Shown here piece by piece: positions 224 to 42,373 of a DNA stretch of 53,352 bases (its first letter is position 1; every line of letters starts with the position of its first letter). Made by a program: the position numbers and the translations under genes. The DNA comes from a virus (lineage: Duplodnaviria; Caudoviricetes). Below the pieces are notes generated by a model, which was not told the origin of the DNA, made no database searches, and worked only from the letters and a program-made list of their open reading frames with translations. The stretch covers positions 1 to 53,352 of the IMG/VR virus record IMGVR_UViG_3300009548_000008; one strand, given 5' to 3'.

Positions 224-1546
224 TTGATTATTATCACGCAAATCTCAGGCAAAATCGAAGAATGGCAGGAGAACCTTAACGGCAACTTCAACGTCATTCT
301 GGCCGGCCACAAACCGGTATTCGTCAAGCAGGATAAGAACTGGCTCAGGCAGAAGTATCCCGTGGGGAGTTCCGTCGTGGTGTTCTACCAAAACGGCGCG
401 CTCACGTCGATGCGCGGCACCGCAGAGGAATCCGCAACCCCGCCGGCAAAACCGGCAACCCAGGATACGGCAGAAGCACCCAAGGAGAGCCCCCCGGTGC
501 TCGGTATCTTCGACGGCATCAGCAACGGCCAGATCCGCGTTATCTCGGACGGCCAGAAAACCGCCGAAAAATACTCTGCAGATCTTGATCTCCTCAAGAT
601 GCTTGCATCTTCACGGTCCCCCGCGCGGCCCGGCGATCATGTGGGTCTCACGTACGTCGAGACCAAAGCAGGGAAGGTTATCAAGTCATTCGGGCTTGAC
701 CGTCCCGCAGGCGGAACTGTTACAAAGCCCCCGATTAACCCGGGCGTCAACGATACCGCAGAGCGTGCCAAGGTAGCCGGGTTCGAGACCGGAAATGATG
801 TCAAAAAGGAGCAGCAGGTACAGGAACCCGAATTTATACCCCTTGACCTCAACATCTCTCCCGCAGAACTGGCGCAACTCGCAGTCGACGATCCGCCAAA
901 GTTCCACCGTCTCAATACATTCCGCCTCGCCTTCATGGCCTCGCAGAAGGCTATGTTTACCGAGATCCTCCAAGGTACCGGGCGCGAAGGGATCCCTGCT
1001 ATCCTCGAATGGCTCGATAAGGAAACCGATTTCTACACCGCGCCCAGCTCAACAAAGTTCCACGAAGCCCGTGAGGGCGGCCTGCTGTACCATTCACTCA
1101 AGATGTTTGAGCACCTCAAGGAACTTGCAACGATCTTTATGGGAGAGTGGCCCCCGGTAGAATCCCTTGCGATTATCGCACTCCTGCACGATGTCTGCAA
1201 AACGAATTTCTACCGGCTTGAGATCAAGGCCATCCCGCGCCGGGACGAGGAAGGAAAACTCATTCTCTTTGACGGAAAGAAGATCTGGGACGAGACGCCC
1301 GTGTATTCAGTAGAGGACGAGATCCCTCTTGGGCACGGCGAGAAATCCGTGATTCTCCTCCTTCACCACGGGCTAAAACTTACTGATGACGAGATCATGG
1401 CGATCCGCTGGCACATGATGGCGTTTGACGACATCCGGTATTCCTACAATGGAAACGTGGCGATCACGAAGGCGTCGGGAGAAAACCCTCTAATCGTACT
1501 GACGCACATGGCGGATCTGTCCGCGTCATTCCTCGATGTAAGATGA
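224..1546 (+). CDS. HD-domain phosphohydrolase with long N-terminal extension (possibly OB-like folds)
   Basis: DFYTAPSSTKFH..GGLLYHSL, ALLHDVCK, LGHGEKS, AIRWHM, HMAD motifs of the phage HD family; CAGGAG RBS before TTG. Confidence 0.8.
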   Translation: MIIITQISGKIEEWQENLNGNFNVILAGHKPVFVKQDKNWLRQKYPVGSSVVVFYQNGALTSMRGTAEESATPPAKPATQDTAEAPKESPPVLGIFDGISNGQIRVISDGQKTAEKYSADLDLLKMLASSRSPARPGDHVGLTYVETKAGKVIKSFGLDRPAGGTVTKPPINPGVNDTAERAKVAGFETGNDVKKEQQVQEPEFIPLDLNISPAELAQLAVDDPPKFHRLNTFRLAFMASQKAMFTEILQGTGREGIPAILEWLDKETDFYTAPSSTKFHEAREGGLLYHSLKMFEHLKELATIFMGEWPPVESLAIIALLHDVCKTNFYRLEIKAIPRRDEEGKLILFDGKKIWDETPVYSVEDEIPLGHGEKSVILLLHHGLKLTDDEIMAIRWHMMAFDDIRYSYNGNVAITKASGENPLIVLTHMADLSASFLDVR

Positions 1547-6364: not shown

Positions 6365-7422
6365 CAGAGCAGCCGAAGGAATACATCATCACGGAAGATC
6401 AGATAAAAGGTCTTTCTTTTGTTGCTGCCACGAATCCTATTTCAGATTGTGACAAAGTCCTCTCAATAATATCCGAAATATACTCCCGCCCGGTCAGCAC
6501 CTCGCCAGAGAGAGCCGCGTCGGAACCAACTCACTGCATCCACGAATGTGTATGTTCTTTCTACGAAAATCGGAAAGGTGTTTTGAGCAAAGAACCCTGC
6601 GATTTAAACAGCCTATCGGCATGTCCACATTCGAATAGTGGTCATGACGACGCCGCGATAGAGCAGGCAGCCCGGGAGAAAGTGCTGGAAGAAAATATGG
6701 CATTAATCCGCGACGTTATCTCAAAAGATCAGTCCGGTCTTGCAGAAGCATTGGCAAAAATACGAACTCTCGCAAAAGGATACGATTGGATCCCGGACGG
6801 AGAATGGGGAAGTTACGACTATACGCAGCGTACAGTAGAAACGCTCCAAAAAGAATGTGGGTATCTTCTGGCCGAAATTGAAAAGATTGCATACGAGGGA
6901 TTGCGAGATTCTGGAAACCGAGTTATTGCGCATGTTCAGTCCTGCGAAGAATCCTTAATTTCCAACCAACTGGCACAGAAAGCACATGAGCCGGAATCAT
7001 TCATCTGCGCAAACAACAAGTGTCTAATTTTGGGGTGTATCCATCGGGGAGTTCATCAACACAATGAGCAGTGTGATCGATATGGGCACACCACCTGCCA
7101 GAAGTGCGTCCCGGTCAAAGATTCAGTCTCGCAACCAAGTCCAGTACCTACAAGTGGCACGGGTACGGCTCTGGAAGGTGCGACGGTTGAGCATATGCAG
7201 ACAGAAAGGACTTGTAAGATATGTAAGCATCCAACCTGTCCACAGCGAACAACCTCTTCAAATGCGTACAAAGTTTGTATAGCGGATGGAAGTTTCGTGG
7301 ATAAAGAACCGGAACAAGACGAGTGCACCTATCCCGGCATGGCAAAGGACATCGAGGATCTGTGTGGTCGTGTGAAGATCCTTGAAGAGCGAGTGGATAC
7401 CAATGACCGATCCATTCTTTAA
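6361..7422 (+). CDS. Mosaic Cys-rich hypothetical protein
   Basis: Several small Cys clusters; C-terminal segment shared with the upstream gene. Confidence 0.6.
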   Translation: MTEQPKEYIITEDQIKGLSFVAATNPISDCDKVLSIISEIYSRPVSTSPERAASEPTHCIHECVCSFYENRKGVLSKEPCDLNSLSACPHSNSGHDDAAIEQAAREKVLEENMALIRDVISKDQSGLAEALAKIRTLAKGYDWIPDGEWGSYDYTQRTVETLQKECGYLLAEIEKIAYEGLRDSGNRVIAHVQSCEESLISNQLAQKAHEPESFICANNKCLILGCIHRGVHQHNEQCDRYGHTTCQKCVPVKDSVSQPSPVPTSGTGTALEGATVEHMQTERTCKICKHPTCPQRTTSSNAYKVCIADGSFVDKEPEQDECTYPGMAKDIEDLCGRVKILEERVDTNDRSIL

Positions 7423-7518
7423 ATGTTATATTTGCCCACACGATCCAGAAACGTGCAATCCGCCATATGATTGCCCGGAAGAGGAACAGAAGGAGACCGG
7501 TACAGTGGAGGAAAGGAA

Positions 7519-7782
7519 ATGAATCAGAAATACATTGCCGAATCCCTTTTACAATTACCAGAAAAAATCCATGTCATTAAAATTGACGCATTTGGTGACA
7601 ATATTGAATTGATGCTACAATTCGCGGAGAATATTGATGACGCGGTTAAACAAACTCACTGGTGGTTTGATCATCAAAAAACGTTTAAACGAGCAAGAAT
7701 TTGCGGAATGAATGGCACAACTATCGAATTTATAAAAGACAAGACCCGCACCACAGGGGCAGATTCGGAGCGTGGGGGGTGA
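7519..7782 (+). CDS. Hypothetical protein
   Basis: GGAGG RBS, AT-rich ORF. Confidence 0.55.
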   Translation: MNQKYIAESLLQLPEKIHVIKIDAFGDNIELMLQFAENIDDAVKQTHWWFDHQKTFKRARICGMNGTTIEFIKDKTRTTGADSERGG

Positions 7783-7791
7783 GGTGATTCC

Positions 7792-8088
7792 ATGATCAAC
7801 GCTGACGAAATGATGATGATATTCAAATCAGTCGGATGGTTTGAGAAAGGCCGGTGGGTCACGCCGTACTCGCAGATGCGGGAACGCATGGGAGAGATCC
7901 CCGTGCAGAAATACGAGCTGATCCAGCACGACGCCGAACCGATTTTCAAAGCCGGCGCCTGCATAGGGTACCGGAACGTCGAAACCGTGATCGGGATCTT
8001 CACCGCAGAGGAGATCGATATCATCCACGGGGATACCGTCGAGATGCAGGAACAGATGAGCCGGACCGAAATCCGGTCCCTCCCATAA
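7792..8088 (+). CDS. Hypothetical protein
   Basis: GAGGTGA RBS. Confidence 0.6.
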   Translation: MINADEMMMIFKSVGWFEKGRWVTPYSQMRERMGEIPVQKYELIQHDAEPIFKAGACIGYRNVETVIGIFTAEEIDIIHGDTVEMQEQMSRTEIRSLP

Positions 8089-8106
8089 CACAAAGTCTTT
8101 TCTTGT

Positions 8107-8478
8107 ATGCGTGTTACAGAGAATACATTAATGGCAGAAACCGCTCTTACGCCAAAAGAACTCAAGGAGGGTAAAAACATCCGGATTCTTGCGGGCAACC
8201 TCCTTGCATTACGGGAGATTGATGAAAGCCCCAACAGCGCTATCGCACGGATGCTGGAAGAGAACAAGCAGCTTCGCGCGCAGATCGAAACCCTCTCGAA
8301 AATGCCCCCCGGGGGGACCGGCGCCGCAATCGACCCGGAGGCCATTCGGTCCATCGTCAACGACTGTCTCAAGATCCCGGTGGATAACCTGATGAAACGC
8401 ACATTCACCGCAGAGCAGATCGGAAATATCATGCACGGCAAGCTCAACGAAATACTCGAGCCCTTCATGGAGCACTGA
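8107..8478 (+). CDS. Hypothetical protein, possibly DNA-binding
   Basis: ORF in run; start may instead be ATG 8131. Confidence 0.55.
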   Translation: MRVTENTLMAETALTPKELKEGKNIRILAGNLLALREIDESPNSAIARMLEENKQLRAQIETLSKMPPGGTGAAIDPEAIRSIVNDCLKIPVDNLMKRTFTAEQIGNIMHGKLNEILEPFMEH

Positions 8479-8483
8479 TCATT

Positions 8484-8858
8484 ATGGTAGAACCGAAGAA
8501 ATCACTCAAAATCAAAAAACCCGCGCAGAAAGAAGATCAACTCGCAACTCCGGCCGCAAAGGCAGATGTGCCCGCCAAACCGGAAACTCTGGAAAAAACG
8601 GTCACCCCCGCGTCTGTAACCCCGGCAACACAACCCGCGAAATCTCCGCAACCCGATATCGTCGTGCCGCCAAAAGTGGTACCCGTAGGACCGCGCACCG
8701 CCCTGATCAAAGACGGGATCATCCCATCGACGCCAGGCCACAGTATTATCATTGCCAACCAGAACGTATTTCGGCATACCGAGGAGCACGGCACCCCCGC
8801 AGCCACCCACAAGGCCGTTATTTCGCCCGACGATAACAAGGTTCTCCGGGGCAATTAG
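8484..8858 (+). CDS. Pro/Ala/Lys-rich hypothetical protein
   Basis: GGAG RBS; low-complexity N-terminal half. Confidence 0.55.
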   Translation: MVEPKKSLKIKKPAQKEDQLATPAAKADVPAKPETLEKTVTPASVTPATQPAKSPQPDIVVPPKVVPVGPRTALIKDGIIPSTPGHSIIIANQNVFRHTEEHGTPAATHKAVISPDDNKVLRGN

Positions 8859-8985
8859 GTATGCCGGAAAAACCGCTTGAATCAGAGGACGAACCCGGCC
8901 TGCCGCAAAAAAAGATTTTCCACGGGGCCCGGCTGACCAAAAAGGAGAAAGACGAGATCAAGAAAGTGGACGTACCGGAGGAATA

Positions 8986-9219
8986 ATGGGGCTCGATTGT
9001 TATGGTGTCTTATACGAGACGGATGAATTTGGTAAGACAACCTGCGCAAAATACATGAGATATCTCAAAGGGCCGGCCCTAAATGCACTTGAAATGCACG
9101 GGGTTGAGATGTCATACAATGATCCTTTACTACAAGGATTAAAGAAGGCACCCACGCAATACCCCTTTAAAAAGGTTGAACTCGGTGGGGGTTTTTTCCT
9201 TATATTATACTGGATTTGA
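8986..9219 (+). CDS. Hypothetical protein
   Basis: GGAGG RBS. Confidence 0.55.
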   Translation: MGLDCYGVLYETDEFGKTTCAKYMRYLKGPALNALEMHGVEMSYNDPLLQGLKKAPTQYPFKKVELGGGFFLILYWI

Positions 9220-9225
9220 TACACC

Positions 9226-9300
9226 ATGGCACAGTACCGCAAAAAACCCGTTGTAATTGACGCCTTCCCGGGCAAGACGATCCGATTAATCAAGGAGTGA
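9226..9300 (+). pseudogene. Truncated remnant of a YRKKPVVI-start (PGDYG-like) phage protein
   Basis: MAQYRKKPVVIDAFPGKTIRLIKE*: the typical N-terminus of this family, but only 24 aa. Confidence 0.45.
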
Positions 9301-9304
9301 ATGA

Positions 9305-9937
9305 GTGACCGGCACCACAACCACGTTACAGGCGGCAACCCGCCAGATGTGGGAACGGCAGGAAGGAGAAAGCGCAAAAGCGTGGAATGCATTCCGGCTG
9401 TATAGAGATATGGAGCCCACCGAGCGCAGCATTGCCAAGATTGCTGCAAAGTTGGGGTATTCCGCCCCGGTGCTCTGCGAACGGTGGTCGATGCGGAATA
9501 ACTGGGTCGCCCGGGCCTTGGCATACGATGAATACACCGATTTACAGGCACGGAACCGCAGGGAACGCGAACGTCTCGCCGCCAGCGACCGGCGGATCCA
9601 GATCGCCAAGAACATGCAGCTCGTAGGCGGCGCGGCCATCCAGGATCTCGGCAAGAAGATCCAGGACGCGCTCCGGAGTGGTAAAGCCATCCCGAAGATC
9701 TCCCTCAAGGACGCCACCGCGATCATCAACGCGGGTGTCCAGATCGAACGGCTCGAAAGTGGAGAATCCACCGCGAACCTAGCCGTTGAGGGCACGATCC
9801 GGATCGAGGATGTAATGAAACGCGAACGCGAACTTATGGATATCATCAAGGAGGCGATCCGTGCAGAAGCCGATCCCGAGACCACACGGCGCATCATCGG
9901 GTACATTGAATCCCGCTGCGCTGCCCAGCGTGACTGA
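9305..9937 (+). CDS. terS: Terminase small subunit (HTH type)
   Basis: WERQEGESAKAWNAFRLYRDM..RSIAK...ERWS..NNWVARALAYD; immediately upstream of TerL. Confidence 0.75.
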   Translation: MTGTTTTLQAATRQMWERQEGESAKAWNAFRLYRDMEPTERSIAKIAAKLGYSAPVLCERWSMRNNWVARALAYDEYTDLQARNRRERERLAASDRRIQIAKNMQLVGGAAIQDLGKKIQDALRSGKAIPKISLKDATAIINAGVQIERLESGESTANLAVEGTIRIEDVMKRERELMDIIKEAIRAEADPETTRRIIGYIESRCAAQRD

Positions 9938-11561
9938 CAACCTCCGGCAGGAATTTGTCGGGAGTTTCAAGTCCACCCGTAACGTAGTCGACATCATCAC
10001 GTTCGCGGAGGATCCCGCGTATCTCGGGGAACGATTATACCCCCGGCAGAAAGAGATCTTCCGGGAATTTTACGACCCGACAAAATCATGGGAAGAACTG
10101 CTTTTGATCTGCGGCCGGGACTCCACGAAGACCTTCATGGCGTCAATCATCGCCTGCTATACCGCGTATCTTTGGGAAGAGATCCCGGATCCCTATTGGC
10201 TCTATCAGGGCCGGGTGAGCCGCGATAAAGAGGTTTCAATCCCCTGTATAGCGAAGAAACAGGAGCAGGCCGGTATCCTGTTCGATGAAATCAAAGCCAA
10301 GATATCCCGGAGCCCATACTTCAAGGGCAAGACCGTCCGGATCAACAGCCTCGATATCGAGCTCACGAAGAAACTCCGAATAGAGGCCGTCACCAGCAAC
10401 TCCGCGTCAGAAGTCGGAAAGACCGCGCTTGCGGTCCTCTTTGACGAGCTGGGGAAGTACGGGACCGAGAAGGGCACCCGGGACGGTGAGGAAGTCTATG
10501 ACACCATGAAACCGTCCGTGGGCCGGTTTGCCTCCAACCGGCTGGAGTTCCTTAAGCGGTGCGCGGGCGACGCTAACCTTGAGATGATCGTGCGGTTCCT
10601 CGGCCGGGTAATCAGCATCACAACGCCCATGGCCGAGCAGGGGATCCTCTGGCGGCTGTTCTCACAATGGGAGACTGACAAGCGCAATCAGATCCCCACC
10701 ACACTCCTGCTGTACAAGCGGCCAACGTGGGAGATGAACCCCAACTACTCTTTCGACTCGTCGTTCATCAAAGAGGAGATGCGCACCAACCCGTCATTCT
10801 GGCGTGAGTGGGGCGCTGAGTTCGAGAAAGCGCTTGATGCGATGTTCAAACCGGAACTTATCGATTCCTGCATTGCCAAGATGAAGGCCGCGATCGATCC
10901 TGGGATGATTGACTATACCTCAGCGATCGATACCTCCAAGACAAAAGACGCGTTCGCGTTCTGCATCGGTCATATGCTGGCCGGCCGGGTGATCATCGAC
11001 GAGATCCGGTACTGGATCAGCGAGGATGGCCACCGGCACAACTGGGCCCAGATTGAACACGACGTCCGGCTGCTCTGCATGCAGTACCGGGTTGAACAGA
11101 TCGCCCACGATGGATTCGAAAGCGAAGGCGTGCGGCTTCATTTCCATAATTTCCTGCTGGACGAGACGGTATTCACGCTGCAGTATAAGATGGACATCTA
11201 CGACTGCCTTGAGAAACGGCTCTATAACCATGAGATCGAGTATCCGGGCCACCCCCGGCTGCTGGCCGAACTCAAGGCGCTGCAGCGCAAATGGAACGGC
11301 GACAAGTTCACCGTGCACCATCCCGCGATCGGCCCAGTCACCAACGATGACGGTCCCGACGTAGTGGCAAACGTGGCATACCGTTTGTATAACCATTACG
11401 TCACGACCCGGGAGGGCATCAACGACGAGATCCGGACCACGGACAGTATCGAATGGCCGGACGACCGGCGATATCTTGACGCGGATTCCATGGGGCATCT
11501 TGCGCAACGGTTTCCCTCAATGATCTCGTCCGGGCAGGACCACATGGAAGGGGGCGAGTAA
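9930..11561 (+). CDS. terL: Terminase large subunit
   Basis: LYPRQ, Walker A variant GRDSTKT, Walker B VLFDE, ITTP coupling motif, nuclease AIDTSKTKDAF and C-terminal NDDGPD. Confidence 0.9.
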   Translation: MTDNLRQEFVGSFKSTRNVVDIITFAEDPAYLGERLYPRQKEIFREFYDPTKSWEELLLICGRDSTKTFMASIIACYTAYLWEEIPDPYWLYQGRVSRDKEVSIPCIAKKQEQAGILFDEIKAKISRSPYFKGKTVRINSLDIELTKKLRIEAVTSNSASEVGKTALAVLFDELGKYGTEKGTRDGEEVYDTMKPSVGRFASNRLEFLKRCAGDANLEMIVRFLGRVISITTPMAEQGILWRLFSQWETDKRNQIPTTLLLYKRPTWEMNPNYSFDSSFIKEEMRTNPSFWREWGAEFEKALDAMFKPELIDSCIAKMKAAIDPGMIDYTSAIDTSKTKDAFAFCIGHMLAGRVIIDEIRYWISEDGHRHNWAQIEHDVRLLCMQYRVEQIAHDGFESEGVRLHFHNFLLDETVFTLQYKMDIYDCLEKRLYNHEIEYPGHPRLLAELKALQRKWNGDKFTVHHPAIGPVTNDDGPDVVANVAYRLYNHYVTTREGINDEIRTTDSIEWPDDRRYLDADSMGHLAQRFPSMISSGQDHMEGGE

Positions 11562-39469: not shown

Positions 39470-40198
39470 ATGGACCGGCCCTTCAAGCTCGGTAAGAAAG
39501 CCGCCCGGCACGACCGGCGGAACATTCTTTTTCGGGACATCCTGACACAGCAGGCCGTACCTGATACCTACAGCGTAGATCCGACTGTGCCGCCCGTCAT
39601 GGGAGGGAACGACCGGGTCGGGGACTGTGTGATGGTCTGCCTCTATAACATCCTCCGTCAAATCACATGGAAGAACCAAGCCAAACTCCTCCAGCTGACA
39701 GACGATCAGATCGTGCAGGAATATCTCGACCGCACCAACGGCCACGATGTCGGCATGAACATCAACGATGCCCTGAACTGGCTGACAAACGTGGGCTGGA
39801 TCTTCCCGGACGGCACTACGTATACAATCGCCGGGTATGCGCAGGTGGATTTCACCAACCCCGACGAGCTCAAACTCGCAGCATCCGGCCATCTCGGTCT
39901 TGTTACAGGGGTGGAACTGCCGGACAACTGGTCTGCCGCGTTTGCCAACAACACCCGCGTACCGTGGACGGATACCAGTCAGCCCCCGGACAACCACGAG
40001 GGGCACTGCATGTACCTCGAAGGATACGATCCGACCTATATCACGTTCGATACATGGGGTGGCTACGAACCCGCAACGTGGGCATGGGGGAAGCTCTACA
40101 TGGACGAATGCTTCTACGTGCTCCCCCCGGTTGGCAGCTACCAAGACCCGTTCGTATCCCTTGACGCCCTCCATGCGGCGCAGGAGGCAATCCCATAA
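39470..40198 (+). CDS. Papain-like (C1-fold) cysteine peptidase, candidate lysin
   Basis: MGGNDRVGDCV (catalytic Cys), EGHCMYLEGYD (His), FDTWG. Confidence 0.75.
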   Translation: MDRPFKLGKKAARHDRRNILFRDILTQQAVPDTYSVDPTVPPVMGGNDRVGDCVMVCLYNILRQITWKNQAKLLQLTDDQIVQEYLDRTNGHDVGMNINDALNWLTNVGWIFPDGTTYTIAGYAQVDFTNPDELKLAASGHLGLVTGVELPDNWSAAFANNTRVPWTDTSQPPDNHEGHCMYLEGYDPTYITFDTWGGYEPATWAWGKLYMDECFYVLPPVGSYQDPFVSLDALHAAQEAIP

Positions 40199-40584
40199 AG
40201 AACCCTGCAGGCGAGCGCTCGCTGATCATCCCCGCAAGGTAAGCACGATTGTCCCTCCTCTTTCGGTCGCCATGACCCGGGACCGCGGGAGTCCATCACC
40301 ATGTCCCGGGGAACCAAAAGGCACGGGTTCTCAATGAGCGCCTAAGAGGACCATTTAGTTTCCTTCGTGAACAAGATACCAGTCCCATGGTACAAATCGG
40401 GAGGGCCTTGCACCCCCTCCATTTTCCATTCTCATGATTCTTCAGGAATGCCCGATATCTTTGATTTTTGGCACCATTTACCCATGTTACATATCCATGT
40501 ATAGAGAACTACTATAGGACCTGGAAAAAGGCCGTTTTTGAGCGAATCTTTATTATCCTATCATTTAAAATATATACTAATAAT

Positions 40585-40734
40585 ATGCGAACCGTAATAG
40601 CCAAAATGAACTTATCTGGTGTCCGAAAGAGCCAAGCCGCTGCCGTGGAGGTACTAAAAACCATGCTCAAGGACCACAAGGGCCGGCGCGATACCAAGAT
40701 CATCCGCGAGAAGATCCGGCAACTTGCGGTATAA
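40585..40734 (+). CDS. Small basic protein (49 aa)
   Basis: Preceded by TTTAAAATATATA, followed by a T11 tract. Confidence 0.5.
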   Translation: MRTVIAKMNLSGVRKSQAAAVEVLKTMLKDHKGRRDTKIIREKIRQLAV

Positions 40735-40737
40735 CTC

Positions 40738-40748
40738 TTTTTTTTTTC
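40738..40748 (+). terminator. Oligo-T archaeal terminator
   Basis: T-run directly after the stop codon. Confidence 0.55.
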
Positions 40749-40783
40749 AAATTTTCCAAAAAGGGAACCCTTATACTAAGAAC

Positions 40784-40833
40784 GAATTTCGTATTTAAAT
40801 TATATATAAATATATAAGATATTCACGAAATTC
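40784..40833. promoter_or_regulatory. 9-bp inverted repeat (GAATTTCGT/ACGAAATTC) enclosing a TATA-rich core
   Basis: GAATTTCGT-ATTTAAATTATATATAAATATATAAGATATTC-ACGAAATTC. Confidence 0.6.
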
Positions 40834-40999
40834 ACAGATCCTGACCTTGATCAGATCCGGCTCGCAACAAAACCAGGTTCTGTTAACTTGACGGGTCTTA
40901 AAACCCGCTGTTAACTGTCGGGACTTCCTGACTTGCATTTTGGATCAGCGTCAGCCACTTGTTATCTCCTATGACTTCAATGCCGCACGCCTCAGCGGG

Positions 41000-41036
41000 C
41001 TTCGAGCGAATCATCCAAGAGAACAAGGATTGAAAC
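41000..41036 (+). CRISPR. Solitary 37-nt CRISPR repeat unit (methanogen I-B/III-type), no array
   Basis: CTTCGAGCGAATCATCCAAGAGAACAAGGATTGAAAC: 37 nt, ATCC/GGAT stem, terminal ATTGAAAC handle, intergenic. Confidence 0.75.
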
Positions 41037-41055
41037 TATACCTATCCGATATGGG

Positions 41056-41078
41056 GTTATGTGCATAACTATAAATAC
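41056..41078 (+). promoter_or_regulatory. Palindromic operator GTTATGTGCATAAC abutting TATA box TATAAATA
   Basis: TATA lies 22-29 nt before leaderless ATG 41100. Confidence 0.55.
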
Positions 41079-41099
41079 TGATACGACCTATGACTAACT

Positions 41100-41237
41100 A
41101 TGACAAAACAATGGAAAGTGAGTTTTGCCGTTTCGGAGGAAGATTTTAACCGGGGTAAGAAACTTCCCCGCGAGATCAACATCTCCGAAGAACTGAGAAA
41201 AGCATACGGAAAAATCCTCGACAAAGCAGGTGTTTGA
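41100..41237 (+). CDS. Small ribbon-helix-helix (CopG/CcdA-like) regulator, 45 aa
   Basis: MTKQWKVSFAVSEEDFNRGKKLPREINISEELRKAYGKILDKAGV. Confidence 0.6.
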   Translation: MTKQWKVSFAVSEEDFNRGKKLPREINISEELRKAYGKILDKAGV

Positions 41238-41270
41238 AATGGTAACCGTATCAGGAAAATTAGCAAGATC

Positions 41271-41870
41271 ATGGATCGAGGAATACAAAAAACAACCGGG
41301 ATCACATTGCGATTTCCTCCCAGTATCCCGGAGAAACCATACAATCATCTCTATGATCGAATGCATCAGGCCGGCCTCACGCTCCATCAGATGAGGATTT
41401 GCCAGCCCTATGGTGACGATCAGAGAAAAGGGCTCTGGTTGTTCCATATCATTGAACCGGAAACATGGTCAAAAGTTGTTGCCCGCGTCAATGGTGCGAA
41501 CCAGGGAGCGCTCTATGCGCAGGATTCCGGTGATATTCTCGGTGTTGGGAAAATTACCCGACCGCCGGGTCACACATGGGAAAGCTTCGCGCACCTCCTT
41601 TTAGAGTCGATGCCGGAAAAAACACGGGAACATTACGAGAACAAGATCGCCGTCTTCCTGCACTGGTATTCAGATCGGGGATATGGCAGGACAATTCCCG
41701 ATGAAGGCGAGATGACCAAAGACAAACCCAGCTGGAAACGAATATGCAAGGCACTCCTGAGAAACGATTATTGGTGCAAGGGACTTTCTTTCAGCCAAAA
41801 CAAACCGGTGGCGTATGCGAATTATGTTAAAGTGATGAAGAAACGGAGGGAAAAATGGGGGATATTTTAG
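41271..41870 (+). pseudogene. ibrA: 5'-truncated IbrA-like (PAPS reductase/DUF3440) gene; C-terminal part only
   Basis: YNHLYDRMHQAG...MRICQPYGDDQRKGL...PSWKRICKALLRNDYWCKGLSF; the N-terminal SGGKDS domain is absent. Confidence 0.7.
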
Positions 41871-42373
41871 AGTGGACAAAGGAGCACCCGGTATCTCATG
41901 TGCAGTGGGTACCGACTGAAAAGGTATTTGCAAACGATTACAATCCAAACACGGTTGCACCGCCTGAAATGAAACTCCTGAAAATCAGCATAGAATCTGA
42001 TGGTTTCACTCAGCCGATTGTTGTATGGGAACACGATGAAGGATATGAAGTCGTGGATGGGTTTCACCGGCATCTCGTGGGAAAACAATTGGGACTCACA
42101 CATCTTCCTGTGGTTGTAATCAATGGAAATCGCACCGAGAAAACAGATCGGATTGCCTCGACTATCCGGCATAACCGGGCGCGGGGAAAACATCAGGTTG
42201 CAGGTATGAGTGAGATCGTTCAGGAGTTGTCACGGCGTAATTGGTCAGAAGCAAAAATTGGGCGTGAACTTGGAATGGAACCAGACGAGGTATTGAGACT
42301 TAAACAAATCGGTGGTCTTGCTGAAATGTTTGCGGATAAAGAATTTTCAGAAGCTTGGGACGCTGAATTGTAA
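41855..42373 (+). CDS. ibrB: IbrB-like ParB-N domain protein
   Basis: ANDYNPNTVAPPEMKLL, GFTQPIV, VVDGFHR, STIRHNRARGKH, LGMEPDEVLRLKQ. Confidence 0.85.
   Translation: MGDILEWTKEHPVSHVQWVPTEKVFANDYNPNTVAPPEMKLLKISIESDGFTQPIVVWEHDEGYEVVDGFHRHLVGKQLGLTHLPVVVINGNRTEKTDRIASTIRHNRARGKHQVAGMSEIVQELSRRNWSEAKIGRELGMEPDEVLRLKQIGGLAEMFADKEFSEAWDAEL

What the first reader, a model, noticed from the sequence alone, without database searches (positions are those of the whole stretch)
40784..41237. Solitary methanogen-type CRISPR repeat plus RHH gene: candidate archaeal RNA anti-CRISPR (Racr) or Cas-hijacking module
Seen: an intergenic 37-mer, CTTCGAGCGAATCATCCAAGAGAACAAGGATTGAAAC (41000-41036), with an ATCC/GGAT stem and a terminal ATTGAAAC. 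There is no second repeat and no cas gene in the window. Upstream are a TATA-rich core (40794-40817) and about 160 nt of hairpins. Downstream are a hairpin (CCTAT-CCGAT-ATGGG), a palindrome (GTTATGTGCATAAC), a TATA box and a 45-aa RHH gene. Known: ATTGAAAC is the 8-nt 5' handle left by Cas6 in I-B/III systems. The 37-mer matches the Methanosarcina repeat as I recall it (ATTCGCGAGCAAGATCCACTAAAACAAGGATTGAAAC) at 28/37 ungapped positions; this is from memory and needs checking. Solitary repeat units on bacterial mobile elements act as Racrs, often beside Aca regulators, and CreA/CreR-type RNAs redirect Cascade to repress promoters. Inference: the virus makes a crRNA mimic that titrates host Cas6/Cas7, or uses the following ~35 nt as a guide, with the RHH acting as an Aca-like autorepressor.
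Basis: partly seen in the sequence, partly recalled or inferred. Interest (0 to 1): 0.92.

Follow-up and report, generated by a model that had tools for sequence, protein, structure and literature searches.

The report
Lone host CRISPR repeat in methanogen virus
A tailed virus from peat carries a single, letter-perfect copy of the CRISPR repeat used by its likely host, the methanogen Methanoregula; this is a known kind of viral element that may act as an RNA decoy against the host's immunity, though that is unproven here.

Summary
The 37-mer at 41000-41036 is unique in the window. It is 37/37 identical to the repeat of real CRISPR arrays in a Methanoregula MAG and in 14 metagenome array stretches. 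The repeat family occurs in 18 of 201 genomes of that family. In G086, the one locus annotated, the array lies next to a type I-B cas operon.

The repeat is truly solitary. I found no degenerate second repeat, no cas gene, no similarity to host leaders and no target for the downstream 36 nt.

Two other tailed viruses carry solitary copies that match host repeat variants exactly. Both copies lie in inserts that their closest relatives lack.

The best reading (0.45) is a solitary repeat unit of the published Racr-candidate class: a crRNA mimic that occupies Cas6b/Cascade. The main rival (0.27) is a passive scar. The 72 nt upstream are a relic of an IS6-family transposase gene cut exactly at the repeat, and a 52-nt copy of the host mcrA 3' end lies 750 nt upstream.

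ORF45 is conserved and models as an RHH-like dimer. No RNA data exist.

Verdict: a new member of a known kind, of moderate interest.

The parts
41000..41036 (+). Solitary CRISPR repeat unit (SRU), 37 nt. It is identical to the repeat of Methanoregula-family arrays (type I-B cas operon annotated beside the array in G086).
   Evidence: unique in the window; 37/37 to 12 repeats of the G001 array; 14 metagenome array stretches. Rfam CRISPR-DR7, 34.8 bits, full length.
41029..41036 (+). ATTGAAAC, the part of the repeat that would become the 8-nt 5' handle after Cas6 cleavage. That cleavage site is established knowledge for I-B/III repeats and was not tested here.
   Evidence: Read. Positions 20-37 of the repeat are the same in all 8 repeat variants listed.
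40928..40999 (-). Relic of the 3' end of an IS6-family (DDE_Tnp_IS240/rve) transposase gene. It covers the last 24 conserved codons and is cut exactly at the first base of the repeat.
   Evidence: 63-72 nt at 75-77% identity in 3 host-family genomes, ending at the base before the repeat; full-length relatives of about 380 aa with PF13610 and PF00665; tblastn of P0001 residues 354-377, 83% identity, E 4.6e-07.
40872..40915 (+). GTTAAC...GTTAAC hairpin stretch, also found beside a decayed copy of the same transposase end in one host genome. It is probably part of the same IS end.
   Evidence: L162, 44 nt at 80%; 39 nt with 5 mismatches on an abundant 5,761-nt contig in 4 of 4 laid runs.
40792..40818 (+). 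A+T-rich run with several TATA-box-like words, 180-208 nt upstream of the repeat. It is a possible archaeal promoter for a transcript through the repeat (inferred).
   Evidence: Read. The sigma-70 scan does not cover archaeal promoters.
40738..40747 (+). Run of 10 T directly after the stop of the 49-codon ORF. It is a likely archaeal terminator that separates the upstream unit from the repeat (inferred).
   Evidence: Read.
40585..40734 (+). 49-codon ORF of unknown function upstream of the repeat.
   Evidence: No Pfam family. No PHROG family.
41037..41072 (+). The 36 nt after the repeat (the proposed guide). No target was found. The stretch holds a small hairpin (41041-41055) and the palindrome.
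   Evidence: no matches; hairpins appear in the MFE fold.
41056..41069 (+). Palindrome GTTATG-TG-CATAAC abutting the TATA box. It is a candidate operator for the RHH-like protein (inferred).
   Evidence: unique in the window. At up to 3 mismatches there are 3 matches against 2.8 expected.
41070..41077 (+). TATAAATA, 23 nt before the ATG of ORF45. It is a likely promoter of a leaderless ORF45 mRNA (inferred).
   Evidence: Read.
41100..41237 (+). ORF45, a conserved 45-aa protein. Its model is a symmetric dimer with paired N-terminal strands and two helices (RHH-like).
   Evidence: 10 homologues, 74-89% identity. AF2 mean pLDDT 67.6, helices 13-21 and 30-43; ipSAE 0.72, best control 0.00, partner pLDDT at least 87. 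No Pfam, PHROG or PDB-sequence RHH hit.
41067..41551 (.). 485-nt stretch missing in a natural variant of the virus. The variant keeps the repeat but loses the ORF45 promoter, ORF45 and the 5' part of the DUF3440 gene.
   Evidence: table 5: one contig each in runs X13 and X19.
40204..40255 (+). Copy of the last 13 codons, stop and about 13 nt of host mcrA. It is a candidate attP core or a captured host snippet, 745 nt upstream of the repeat.
   Evidence: 43-52 nt at 92-93% in 4 of the 5 genomes searched. PF02249 on the host ORF; one copy in 50 of 228 genomes, none with two.

Best explanation
The 37-mer is a solitary repeat unit (SRU) of the host's CRISPR system carried by a tailed virus of Methanoregula-type methanogens. 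A type I-B cas operon lies beside the array in the one host locus annotated.

The most likely working is that of an RNA anti-CRISPR (Racr-type decoy). The steps below are inferred:
1. The repeat is transcribed in the sense direction, either from the A+T-rich promoter-like run about 190 nt upstream or by read-through.
2. Host Cas6b recognises it, because it is letter for letter the host repeat, and cuts 8 nt before its 3' end.
3. One product ends in the repeat's 3' handle. The other begins with AUUGAAAC and carries a non-targeting tail.
4. These products occupy Cas6b and the Cas5/Cas7/Cas8b subunits, so fewer effector complexes are loaded with virus-targeting crRNAs.

Shown here:
- Identity to real host repeats.
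- Solitariness.
- Sense orientation.
- Absence of a guide target.
- Recurrence in two other viruses.
- Presence of the arrangement in independent assemblies.

The neighbouring RHH-like ORF45 most likely represses its own promoter at the palindrome. Nothing shown here ties it to the repeat.
For: 1. The repeat is 37/37 identical to 12 repeats of a Methanoregula MAG array and to the repeats of 14 metagenome array stretches.
2. 18 of 201 genomes of that family carry the repeat family. 13 of them have arrays of 3-83 copies.
3. In G086 the array follows cas7(Cst2)-cas5b-cas3-x-cas1-cas2-cas4 and a leader. A Cas6 stands in the same locus in G145.
4. The repeat meets the published SRU criteria: intergenic, on a virus, no partial repeat within 150 nt, no cas gene.
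5. It lies on the same strand as the virus's long ORFs. A TATA-like run lies upstream and a T10 terminator lies before that run.
6. Two other tailed viruses carry full-length solitary copies that each match a host variant exactly:
   - L135/L140 match the G001 variant.
   - G202 matches the G135/G152 variant.
   - Both copies sit in inserts absent from the closest relatives, like accessory cargo.
7. Arrays of this family hold spacers close to these viruses:
   - G086 spacer 1 is 31/35 to G202.
   - G086 spacer 7 is 30/37 to window 1176-1212.
8. Host arrays with the same repeat stand in the same peat runs as the virus (tables 5 and 5c).
9. The junctions are reproduced by independent contigs. 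The left junction is bridged in X13, X18 and X19. The right junction is bridged in X13, and in X19 in the deletion form.
10. Precedent: many viral SRUs act as Racrs. An SRUFinder scan of IMG/VR3, GTDB prophages and PLSDB found 2,103 viral SRUs, including some with archaeal hosts (PMC10651486, passages and section 9 read).
Against: - No RNA evidence exists. Transcription across the repeat, Cas6 cleavage and any effect on interference are all untested.
- The region looks like a patchwork of host-like DNA. An IS6-family transposase relic is cut exactly at the repeat, and an mcrA 3' end copy lies 745 nt upstream. The repeat may therefore have arrived passively.
- No close relative of this virus shares the region, so conservation cannot be judged. 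80 loci with the neighbouring DUF3440-ParB module lack it. The left-flank gene has no relatives in IMG/VR. ORF45 has none there either.
- None of 585 + 385 host spacers matches the window fully.
- The MAG with the identical repeat shows no type I-B cas7, though the MAG is incomplete.
- The Cas6 model found a gene in only 1 of 5 host genomes.
- In G202 the solitary repeat is antisense to the flanking genes. This fits an RNA role only if it has its own promoter.
- The promoter-like run is 180-208 nt from the repeat, and a weak terminator-like hairpin lies between them at 40917-40942.
- No Racr has been tested for type I-B or in archaea in the passages I read.
Confidence: 0.45

Rival explanations
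1. Passive scar. The repeat is a leftover of host DNA that entered the virus by illegitimate or IS-mediated recombination. IS6-family elements fuse replicons (from my own knowledge). The repeat has no function and looks perfect only because the capture is recent.
For: - The 72 nt upstream are a truncated IS6-family transposase 3' end cut at the first base of the repeat.
- A second host-like snippet, the mcrA 3' end, lies 745 nt upstream.
- Solitary copies also occur as chromosomal relics: G148, G154, G168 and L139.
- The solitary repeats of the other two viruses came in as parts of larger inserts of about 185 nt and about 335-357 nt, not as clean 37-nt units.
- The G202 copy is antisense to its neighbours.
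- No relatives exist to show conservation.
Against: - In the 3 viruses with a solitary copy the repeat is full length and 37/37 to a living host variant. A partial repeat would be expected from a random breakpoint, although adjacent spacer fragments could not be recognised as such.
- The IS relic next to it is only 75-77% (nt) like the host copies found. Contigs in 4 peat runs differ from it at 5-10 of about 50 positions. Yet the repeat has no change. This argument is weak, because IS copies are diverse.
- No host or metagenome locus in hand has an IS6 copy next to this repeat.
- The repeat is kept in the natural deletion variant and in all contigs that cover it.
Confidence: 0.27
2. Guide-bearing crRNA mimic. 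The repeat plus the following ~36 nt would act in one of three ways:
- Make a crRNA-like RNA that loads host Cascade to repress a host promoter (Cracr/CreA-like).
- Target a competing virus (mini-array-like).
- Serve as a one-repeat seed array that can take up spacers.
For: - The 5' handle plus a downstream sequence is the minimal crRNA layout (from my own knowledge of type I-B and III crRNAs).
- Viral crlRNAs that silence cas genes are reported for bacteria (10.1101/2024.10.29.618823, abstract and section 7 read).
- Virus-borne mini-arrays with host-identical repeats are reported in archaeal viruses (PMC10848311, passages read).
- L144, a 7.6-kb viral contig, ends in repeat-spacer-repeat start of a related repeat.
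Against: - No second repeat, even a degenerate one.
- No seed match of the first 10-20 nt in 450,781 bases of host cas/array loci, where controls gave 0-5.
- No match at up to 3 of 20 mismatches in 5 host genomes.
- No exact 20-mer in IMG/VR.
- No likeness of the upstream DNA to the conserved host leader. The best E among 18 leaders is 0.12, while 16 of the 18 resemble each other at 82-92%.
- The downstream 36 nt are taken up by the ORF45 operator and promoter.
- Short seeds below about 10 nt and unsampled hosts are not excluded.
Confidence: 0.1
3. DNA-level site. The repeat is a homology or attachment site that lets the virus recombine with or integrate into the host CRISPR array and so disrupt it. 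This has been described for a Streptococcus prophage (recalled, and mentioned in the introduction of PMC10651486).
For: - 37 bp of perfect identity to every repeat of the host array.
- The position between the structural and replication modules is where temperate viruses often keep attP (from my own knowledge).
Against: - No tyrosine integrase (PF00589) in the window, which is 65% complete.
- A better attP candidate lies 745 nt upstream: a 52-nt copy of the mcrA 3' end.
- The interruptions seen in host arrays hold a DDE_Tnp_1 transposase (G135) or a TPR/ST7-like ORF (G152), not viral DNA.
- ParB and MCM genes suggest episomal maintenance.
Confidence: 0.05

Closest known systems
Solitary repeat units / RNA anti-CRISPRs (Racrs) of phages and plasmids (Camara-Wilpert et al. 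2023, PMC10651486; SRUs first listed by Faure et al. 2019, cited there, not read)
   Same: It is a single CRISPR repeat on a virus. It is intergenic, has no cas genes, has no partial repeat nearby and matches the repeat family of the likely host. A promoter-like element lies upstream and a small regulator gene lies beside it.
   Different: - The host is an archaeon and the system is type I-B. The Racrs tested in that paper were I-F, I-E, I-C and V-A in bacteria (legend of Fig. 3, read).
- The promoter-like run is about 190 nt away rather than immediately upstream.
- The upstream flank is an IS6 transposase relic.
- No expression or inhibition data exist.
- Whether this very contig is in that paper's Supplementary Data could not be checked, because supplements are closed.
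Viral crRNA-like regulatory RNAs (Cracr) and host CreA/CreR (10.1101/2024.10.29.618823)
   Same: The element has a repeat-derived 5' handle followed by a non-array sequence, and it sits on a virus.
   Different: Cracrs are defined by at least 9 PAM-proximal matches to a cas or toxin promoter and usually by flanking pseudo-repeats. No such match and no second pseudo-repeat was found here. The reported Cracrs are all bacterial (section 7 read).
Virus-borne mini-CRISPR arrays of archaeal viruses (for example Bathyarchaeia viruses, PMC10848311)
   Same: An archaeal virus carries repeats identical to those of the host array.
   Different: Mini-arrays have at least two repeats and a spacer. This locus has one repeat and no spacer.
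Aca14, a ribbon-helix-helix anti-CRISPR-associated repressor (10.64898/2026.07.27.740549, passages read)
   Same: A small protein modelled as an RHH-like dimer sits next to a candidate anti-CRISPR element. An inverted repeat overlaps its own promoter.
   Different: - No sequence likeness was tested or claimed.
- No protein acr gene was identified beside it.
- The host is archaeal.
- A natural variant keeps the repeat without ORF45.

Membership tests
SRU / Racr candidate (SRUFinder definition, PMC10651486) | Full-length match to a known CRISPR repeat | tested here: met
   37/37 to the arrays of G001 and of 14 metagenome stretches.
SRU / Racr candidate (SRUFinder definition, PMC10651486) | Solitary: no full or partial repeat within 100 bp | tested here: met
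   Flank alignments are no better than shuffles, and the best register is 16/37. It is the only match in the window.
SRU / Racr candidate (SRUFinder definition, PMC10651486) | On a mobile element, intergenic, not associated with cas genes | tested here: met
   The window is an IMG/VR virus record. The repeat lies between ORFs, apart from short unsupported ones. There was no tblastn hit with 8 host Cas proteins and one Cas6.
SRU / Racr candidate (SRUFinder definition, PMC10651486) | Host carries a CRISPR-Cas system of the matching subtype | tested here: met
   A type I-B operon lies beside the array in G086, and a Cas6 lies in the G145 locus. However, the MAG with the identical repeat shows no cas7 (the MAG is incomplete).
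Racr (functional RNA anti-CRISPR) | [quoted passage not shown] | not testable with these tools
   Sequence shows only a promoter-like run, and the tools held no RNA data for this stretch.
Racr (functional RNA anti-CRISPR) | Binds Cas proteins and lowers interference | not testable with these tools
   This needs biochemistry and an infection or plasmid-interference assay.
Rfam RF01320 CRISPR-DR7 | Score at or above the curated gathering score (37 bits) | tested here: not met
   34.8 bits, E 6.1e-05, full length 1-37. This is just under the cut-off. It is a relative of the family, not a scored member.
Virus-borne mini-CRISPR array | At least two repeats flanking a spacer | tested here: not met
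Cracr / CreA-like crlRNA | At least 9 PAM-proximal bases matching a host cas or toxin promoter | tested here: not met
   0 hits of 10/10, 11/12, 14/16 or 16/20 in 450,781 bases of host cas/array loci. 0 of 5 genomes matched at 17/20. The true host's cas locus was not in hand.
Phage attP inside a CRISPR repeat | Integrase with the site, and prophage flanked by repeats in host arrays | tested here: not met
   No PF00589 in the window (65% complete). The array interruptions hold no viral genes.
Ribbon-helix-helix regulators (ORF45) | Strand-helix-helix fold forming a dimer through an antiparallel N-terminal sheet | tested here: inconclusive
   For: the dimer model scores ipSAE 0.72 against a best control of 0.00, with partner pLDDT at least 87 and strand contacts 7-9 with 7-11. 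The monomer has helices 13-21 and 30-43 at pLDDT 67.6. Against: no Pfam, PHROG or PDB-sequence hit to RHH. No fold search was run.
IS6 family insertion sequence (upstream flank) | DDE_Tnp_IS240 transposase and terminal inverted repeats | tested here: not met
   Only the last 24 conserved codons remain. Full-length relatives carry PF13610 and PF00665. No inverted repeats were defined. It is a relic, not an element.

The most novel reading that the evidence does not exclude
The repeat is part of a lysogeny-linked design. In this reading the virus integrates at the 3' end of mcrA through the 52-nt copy at 40204-40255. That would place ORF49, the solitary repeat and the RHH gene within 1 kb downstream of the mcr operon and in the same direction. 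The mcr operon is one of the most strongly expressed operons of a methanogen. The prophage would replace the operon's native T-rich terminator. Read-through plus the local promoter would then feed a steady supply of a crRNA decoy that keeps the host's type I-B system from attacking the resident prophage. IS6-mediated replicon fusion would be the route by which such decoys are picked up from host arrays.
Probability: 0.06. Interest if true: 0.8.

Novelty: new member of a known kind. Interest (0 to 1): 0.4.

Why it matters
If the repeat works as a decoy, it would be the first concrete RNA anti-CRISPR candidate for an archaeal type I-B system and for a virus of a peat methanogen. Its host repeat, a cas operon of the repeat family and a Cas6 gene have been identified, so it can be tested directly.

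It also assigns a likely host (Methanoregula type) to an uncultured virus. In the one run search made, 20 peat, wetland and soil runs dated 2014 to 2025 held at least part of the stretch. 11 of them may be the source of the window.

If the repeat is only a scar, the value lies elsewhere. It shows that perfect solitary repeats can arise next to IS relics. That is a caution for catalogues which count every viral solitary repeat as an anti-CRISPR.

Tried and rejected
**Leader capture.** 18 host and metagenome leaders were compared with window 40256-40999. The best E was 0.12, while 16 of the 18 resemble each other at 82-92%. Rejected.

**Degenerate second repeat.** Rejected.

**Guide target.**
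- No match in host loci.
- No match in 5 genomes.
- No match in IMG/VR.

**Spacers against the window.**
- Of 585 spacers from 17 genome loci, none matched fully.
- Of 385 spacers (242 distinct) from metagenome loci, none matched fully.
- The best match was 30/37.

**tRNA-type attachment site.**
- ARAGORN found no tRNA in the window.
- It found none in the four host loci that match 40204-40255.
- My guess that 40890-40906 was an anticodon arm was dropped.

**Conservation in relatives.**
- 80 loci with the DUF3440 gene share only 41327 onward. The tblastx summary was too noisy to use.
- There are no IMG/VR relatives of the 242-aa left-flank protein.
- There are none of ORF45.

**Transposase fragment.**
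- Pfam on the 76-aa host transposase fragment gave nothing.
- tblastn against plasmids gave nothing.
- The longer-protein search settled its identity.

**SRU flanks of the other viruses.** The flanks of L135 and G202 found nothing in 528,569 bases of host loci.

**Second repeat type.** A second repeat type seen in G154 and G168 is not in the window.

**RNA evidence.** No RNA holder was listed among the 22 runs returned, so nothing can be said on expression.

**ORF45.**
- A PDB sequence profile search gave only chance-level hits.
- No fold search was run on the pLDDT 67.6 model.

- Supplementary files of papers are closed and were not asked for. Supplementary Data 1 and 2 of PMC10651486 may list this contig.

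**Literature.** Searches for this specific case found no paper on a solitary repeat in a Methanoregula virus or on integration at mcrA (listings only).
Full report
**What is there.** The window is an IMG/VR virus record of 53,352 bases, linear, with CheckV completeness 65%. Its long ORFs all lie on the + strand. They include:
- a Mu-F-like head protein, a PKD/lectin protein, a C5 methylase and an HNH protein;
- a DUF3440 protein, a ParB-like protein and an MCM helicase.

So it is a tailed archaeal virus.

It sits in a 900-base gap between a 242-codon ORF ending at 40198 and a 45-codon ORF starting at 41100. It is unique in the window at up to 3 mismatches, and 0 of 100 shuffles gave a match.

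**Is it a real CRISPR repeat?** Yes.
- A scan of one genome per prokaryote species with its 27-base 3' part found one contig, of a Methanoregula sp. MAG, with 12 exact matches.
- Reading that contig shows 12 perfect copies of the whole 37-mer and one decayed last copy, spaced 71-74 bases apart.
- Among 201 genomes of that MAG's family, 18 carry the repeat family at up to 3 mismatches. Of these, 13 have arrays of 3 to 83 copies and 5 have a single copy (details).
- Eight repeat variants are seen. Positions 1-5, 13-18 and 20-37 are the same in all of them.
- In G086 the array follows genes for Cas7 (Cst2/DevR), Cas5b, Cas3, an unassigned protein, Cas1, Cas2 and Cas4, then a leader. That is a type I-B locus.
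- A Cas6 above the NCBIfam cut-off stands in the same locus in G145. The model found one in 1 of 5 genomes tried.
- A metagenome scan with the same 27-mer gave 18 stretches, 14 of them arrays with the identical repeat.
- Rfam places the 37-mer, full length, just under the threshold of CRISPR-DR7: 34.8 against 37 bits.

The likely host is therefore a Methanoregula-type methanogen whose CRISPR repeat family is linked to a type I-B cas operon, not Methanosarcina.

**Is it solitary?** Yes.
- Aligning the repeat to 150 bases on either side scores no better than shuffled flanks, and no register with a 28-45-base spacer exceeds 16/37.
- Eight host Cas proteins and a Cas6 find nothing in the window.
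- The DNA upstream does not resemble the host leader. Among 18 leaders the best E is 0.12, while 16 of the 18 resemble each other at 82-92%.

**What surrounds it.**
- *Upstream unit.* A 49-codon ORF (40585-40734) ends in a run of ten T. An A+T-rich run with TATA-like words follows at 40792-40818.
- *The transposase relic.* The 72 bases before the repeat match three host-family genomes at 75-77%, and the match ends at the base before the repeat. Read on the minus strand, they encode the last 24 conserved residues of an IS6-family transposase. Full-length relatives of about 380 aa carry PF13610 and PF00665. tblastn gives 83% identity at E 4.6e-07. The relic is cut inside the gene exactly at the first base of the repeat, so this is not a transposition junction. 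I cannot explain it.
- *Downstream.* A small hairpin comes first, then a palindrome unique in the window (41056-41069), then TATAAATA 23 bases before the ATG of ORF45.
- *ORF45.* It has 10 homologues at 74-89% identity. It has no Pfam, PHROG or PDB-sequence match. The AF2 monomer is modest, with pLDDT 67.6 and helices 13-21 and 30-43. The two-copy model gives ipSAE 0.72 against a best control of 0.00. That mark was reached by 20 of 30 proteins solved as pairs and by 1 of 23 solved as single chains. The three runs agree in at least 98% of contacts, and the partner's pLDDT is at least 87. The N-terminal strands pair antiparallel, residues 7-9 with 7-11. This is the RHH layout. The model supports it and does not show it, and RHH dimers are well represented among solved structures.

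**Related cases.** Solitary copies occur elsewhere.

Chromosomal copies:
- G148 has repeat, 35 bases and a decayed repeat, upstream of a small ORF and a PIN gene.
- G154 and G168 have one copy at the end of an array of another repeat type.
- L139 has three dispersed copies.

Viral copies:
- L135/L140, contigs with portal and large terminase genes, carry the exact 37-mer just upstream of the terminase gene on the same strand.
- G202, a 40,117-base virus with terminal repeats, carries a full-length copy identical to the variant of the G135 and G152 arrays. It lies antisense in a gap of the tail module.
- In both, the closest relatives lack it. L173 and L174 (75-76% terminase identity) have the small ORF's stop overlapping the terminase start where L135 has about 185 extra bases. 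L175 (87%) has 24 bases where G202 has about 335-357.

So these repeats are recent gains that came in as parts of larger blocks. A fourth viral contig, L144, ends in repeat-spacer-repeat start.

**Conflict with the host.**
- No spacer among 585 + 385 matches the window in full.
- G086 spacer 7 is 30/37 to window 1176-1212.
- G086 spacer 1 is 31/35 to G202.

This is modest evidence that arrays of this family target viruses of this group.

**Field data.**
- 20 of the 22 listed runs, from peat, wetland and soil and dated 2014 to 2025, hold the stretch or part of it. 11 of them may be the source.
- I laid 4 of them: X13, X18, X19 and X20.
- Independent contigs reproduce the relic-repeat junction in 3 of the 4. 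The repeat-downstream junction is reproduced in X13, and in X19 in a deletion form. The arrangement is therefore not an assembly artefact of the window.
- Two runs hold a variant lacking 41067-41551. It keeps the repeat but loses ORF45.
- Repeat-spacer-repeat contigs with the same repeat occur in X13, X19 and X20, so host arrays and virus coexist.
- All laid runs are contigs, so rare variants would be missed.

**How it most likely works.** The element meets every sequence criterion of the published class of viral solitary repeat units, many of which act as RNA anti-CRISPRs (PMC10651486). The inferred mechanism has four steps:
1. The repeat is transcribed in the sense direction.
2. Host Cas6b recognises and cuts it.
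3. The products tie up Cas6b and Cascade subunits.
4. Fewer complexes carry virus-targeting crRNAs.

I give this 0.45.

The rivals are as follows.
- *Passive scar (0.27).* The IS6 relic, the second host-like snippet nearby, the chromosomal relics and the lack of any conservation test all favour it.
- *Guide-bearing mimic or seed array (0.10).* Every target and leader search was blank.
- *DNA-level recombination site for the array (0.05).* There is no integrase in the window, and a better attachment candidate exists.
- The remaining 0.13 is left for readings I have not thought of.

**Comparison and novelty.** This is a new member of a known kind.
- The Racr study scanned IMG/VR3 and reports viral SRUs with archaeal hosts. 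Its tested Racrs were bacterial: I-F, I-E, I-C and V-A (section 9 and legends read).
- The Cracr preprint covers bacteria only (section 7 read).
- Mini-arrays are known in archaeal viruses (PMC10848311, passages read).
- An RHH-type Aca exists in bacteria (10.64898/2026.07.27.740549, passages read).
- My searches found no paper on this case (listings only).
- The contig may already be in the closed supplements of the Racr paper.

**Scores.** Interest is 0.4. A specialist would not be surprised by the element. Its value is that it gives a well-defined archaeal type I-B candidate, with host repeat, a cas operon of the repeat family and a Cas6 in hand. It also shows that such repeats can sit in patchworks of host-derived scraps.

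Noticed in passing
window 40204-40255: Right after the stop of the 242-codon ORF lies a copy of the last 13 codons, stop and about 13 nt of the host mcrA gene. It is 92-93% identical over 43-52 nt in 4 of the 5 genomes searched. The 37-nt core is exact in at least 7 genomes. 50 of 228 family genomes have one copy and none has two. It is a candidate attP for integration at the 3' end of mcrA, or a captured snippet. No integrase is in the window.
   Followed up: partly
window 40928-40999 (minus strand); hairpin 40882-40915: A relic of an IS6-family (DDE_Tnp_IS240/rve) transposase gene's 3' end is cut exactly at the solitary repeat. A 39-nt piece of the adjoining hairpin stretch (5 mismatches) lies on an abundant 5,761-nt contig in all 4 laid peat and wetland runs.
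   Followed up: partly
window 41067-41551: A natural deletion variant of the virus occurs in two metagenome runs (X13, X19). It removes ORF45 and the first 94 codons of the DUF3440 gene but keeps the solitary repeat. Both forms coexist in X13.
   Followed up: no
window 41271-42373: The DUF3440 protein resembles the C-terminal domain of PAPS-reductase-like proteins (PHROG 2302). Together with a ParB-like protein it forms a mobile two-gene module. More than 580 IMG/VR stretches encode relatives, and nucleotide homology to the closest ones starts sharply at 41327.
   Followed up: partly
L024 (G148:C1) 9995-10830: A chromosomal orphan copy of the exact 37-mer is followed by 35 nt and a decayed repeat. 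It lies about 140 nt upstream of a 99-codon ORF and a PIN-domain gene (toxin-antitoxin-like). That genome has no array of this repeat and no type I-B cas7.
   Followed up: partly
L034 (G154), L044 (G168), L139: Single copies of this repeat sit directly after the last unit of arrays of a different 30-nt repeat type that also ends in ATTGAAA. These look like hybrid array ends.
   Followed up: no
L028 (G152) 6484-8384 and L040 (G135) 8351-9400: Host arrays of this family are interrupted by inserts of 1.9 kb (a TPR/ST7-like ORF and a Cas6-like fragment) and 1.05 kb (a DDE_Tnp_1 transposase).
   Followed up: partly
window 39470-40198: The 242-aa protein before the gap has no Pfam family. It matches PHROG 19005 (unknown function). 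By eye it has a Cys/His pattern like a papain-type peptidase and may be a lysis enzyme.
   Followed up: no
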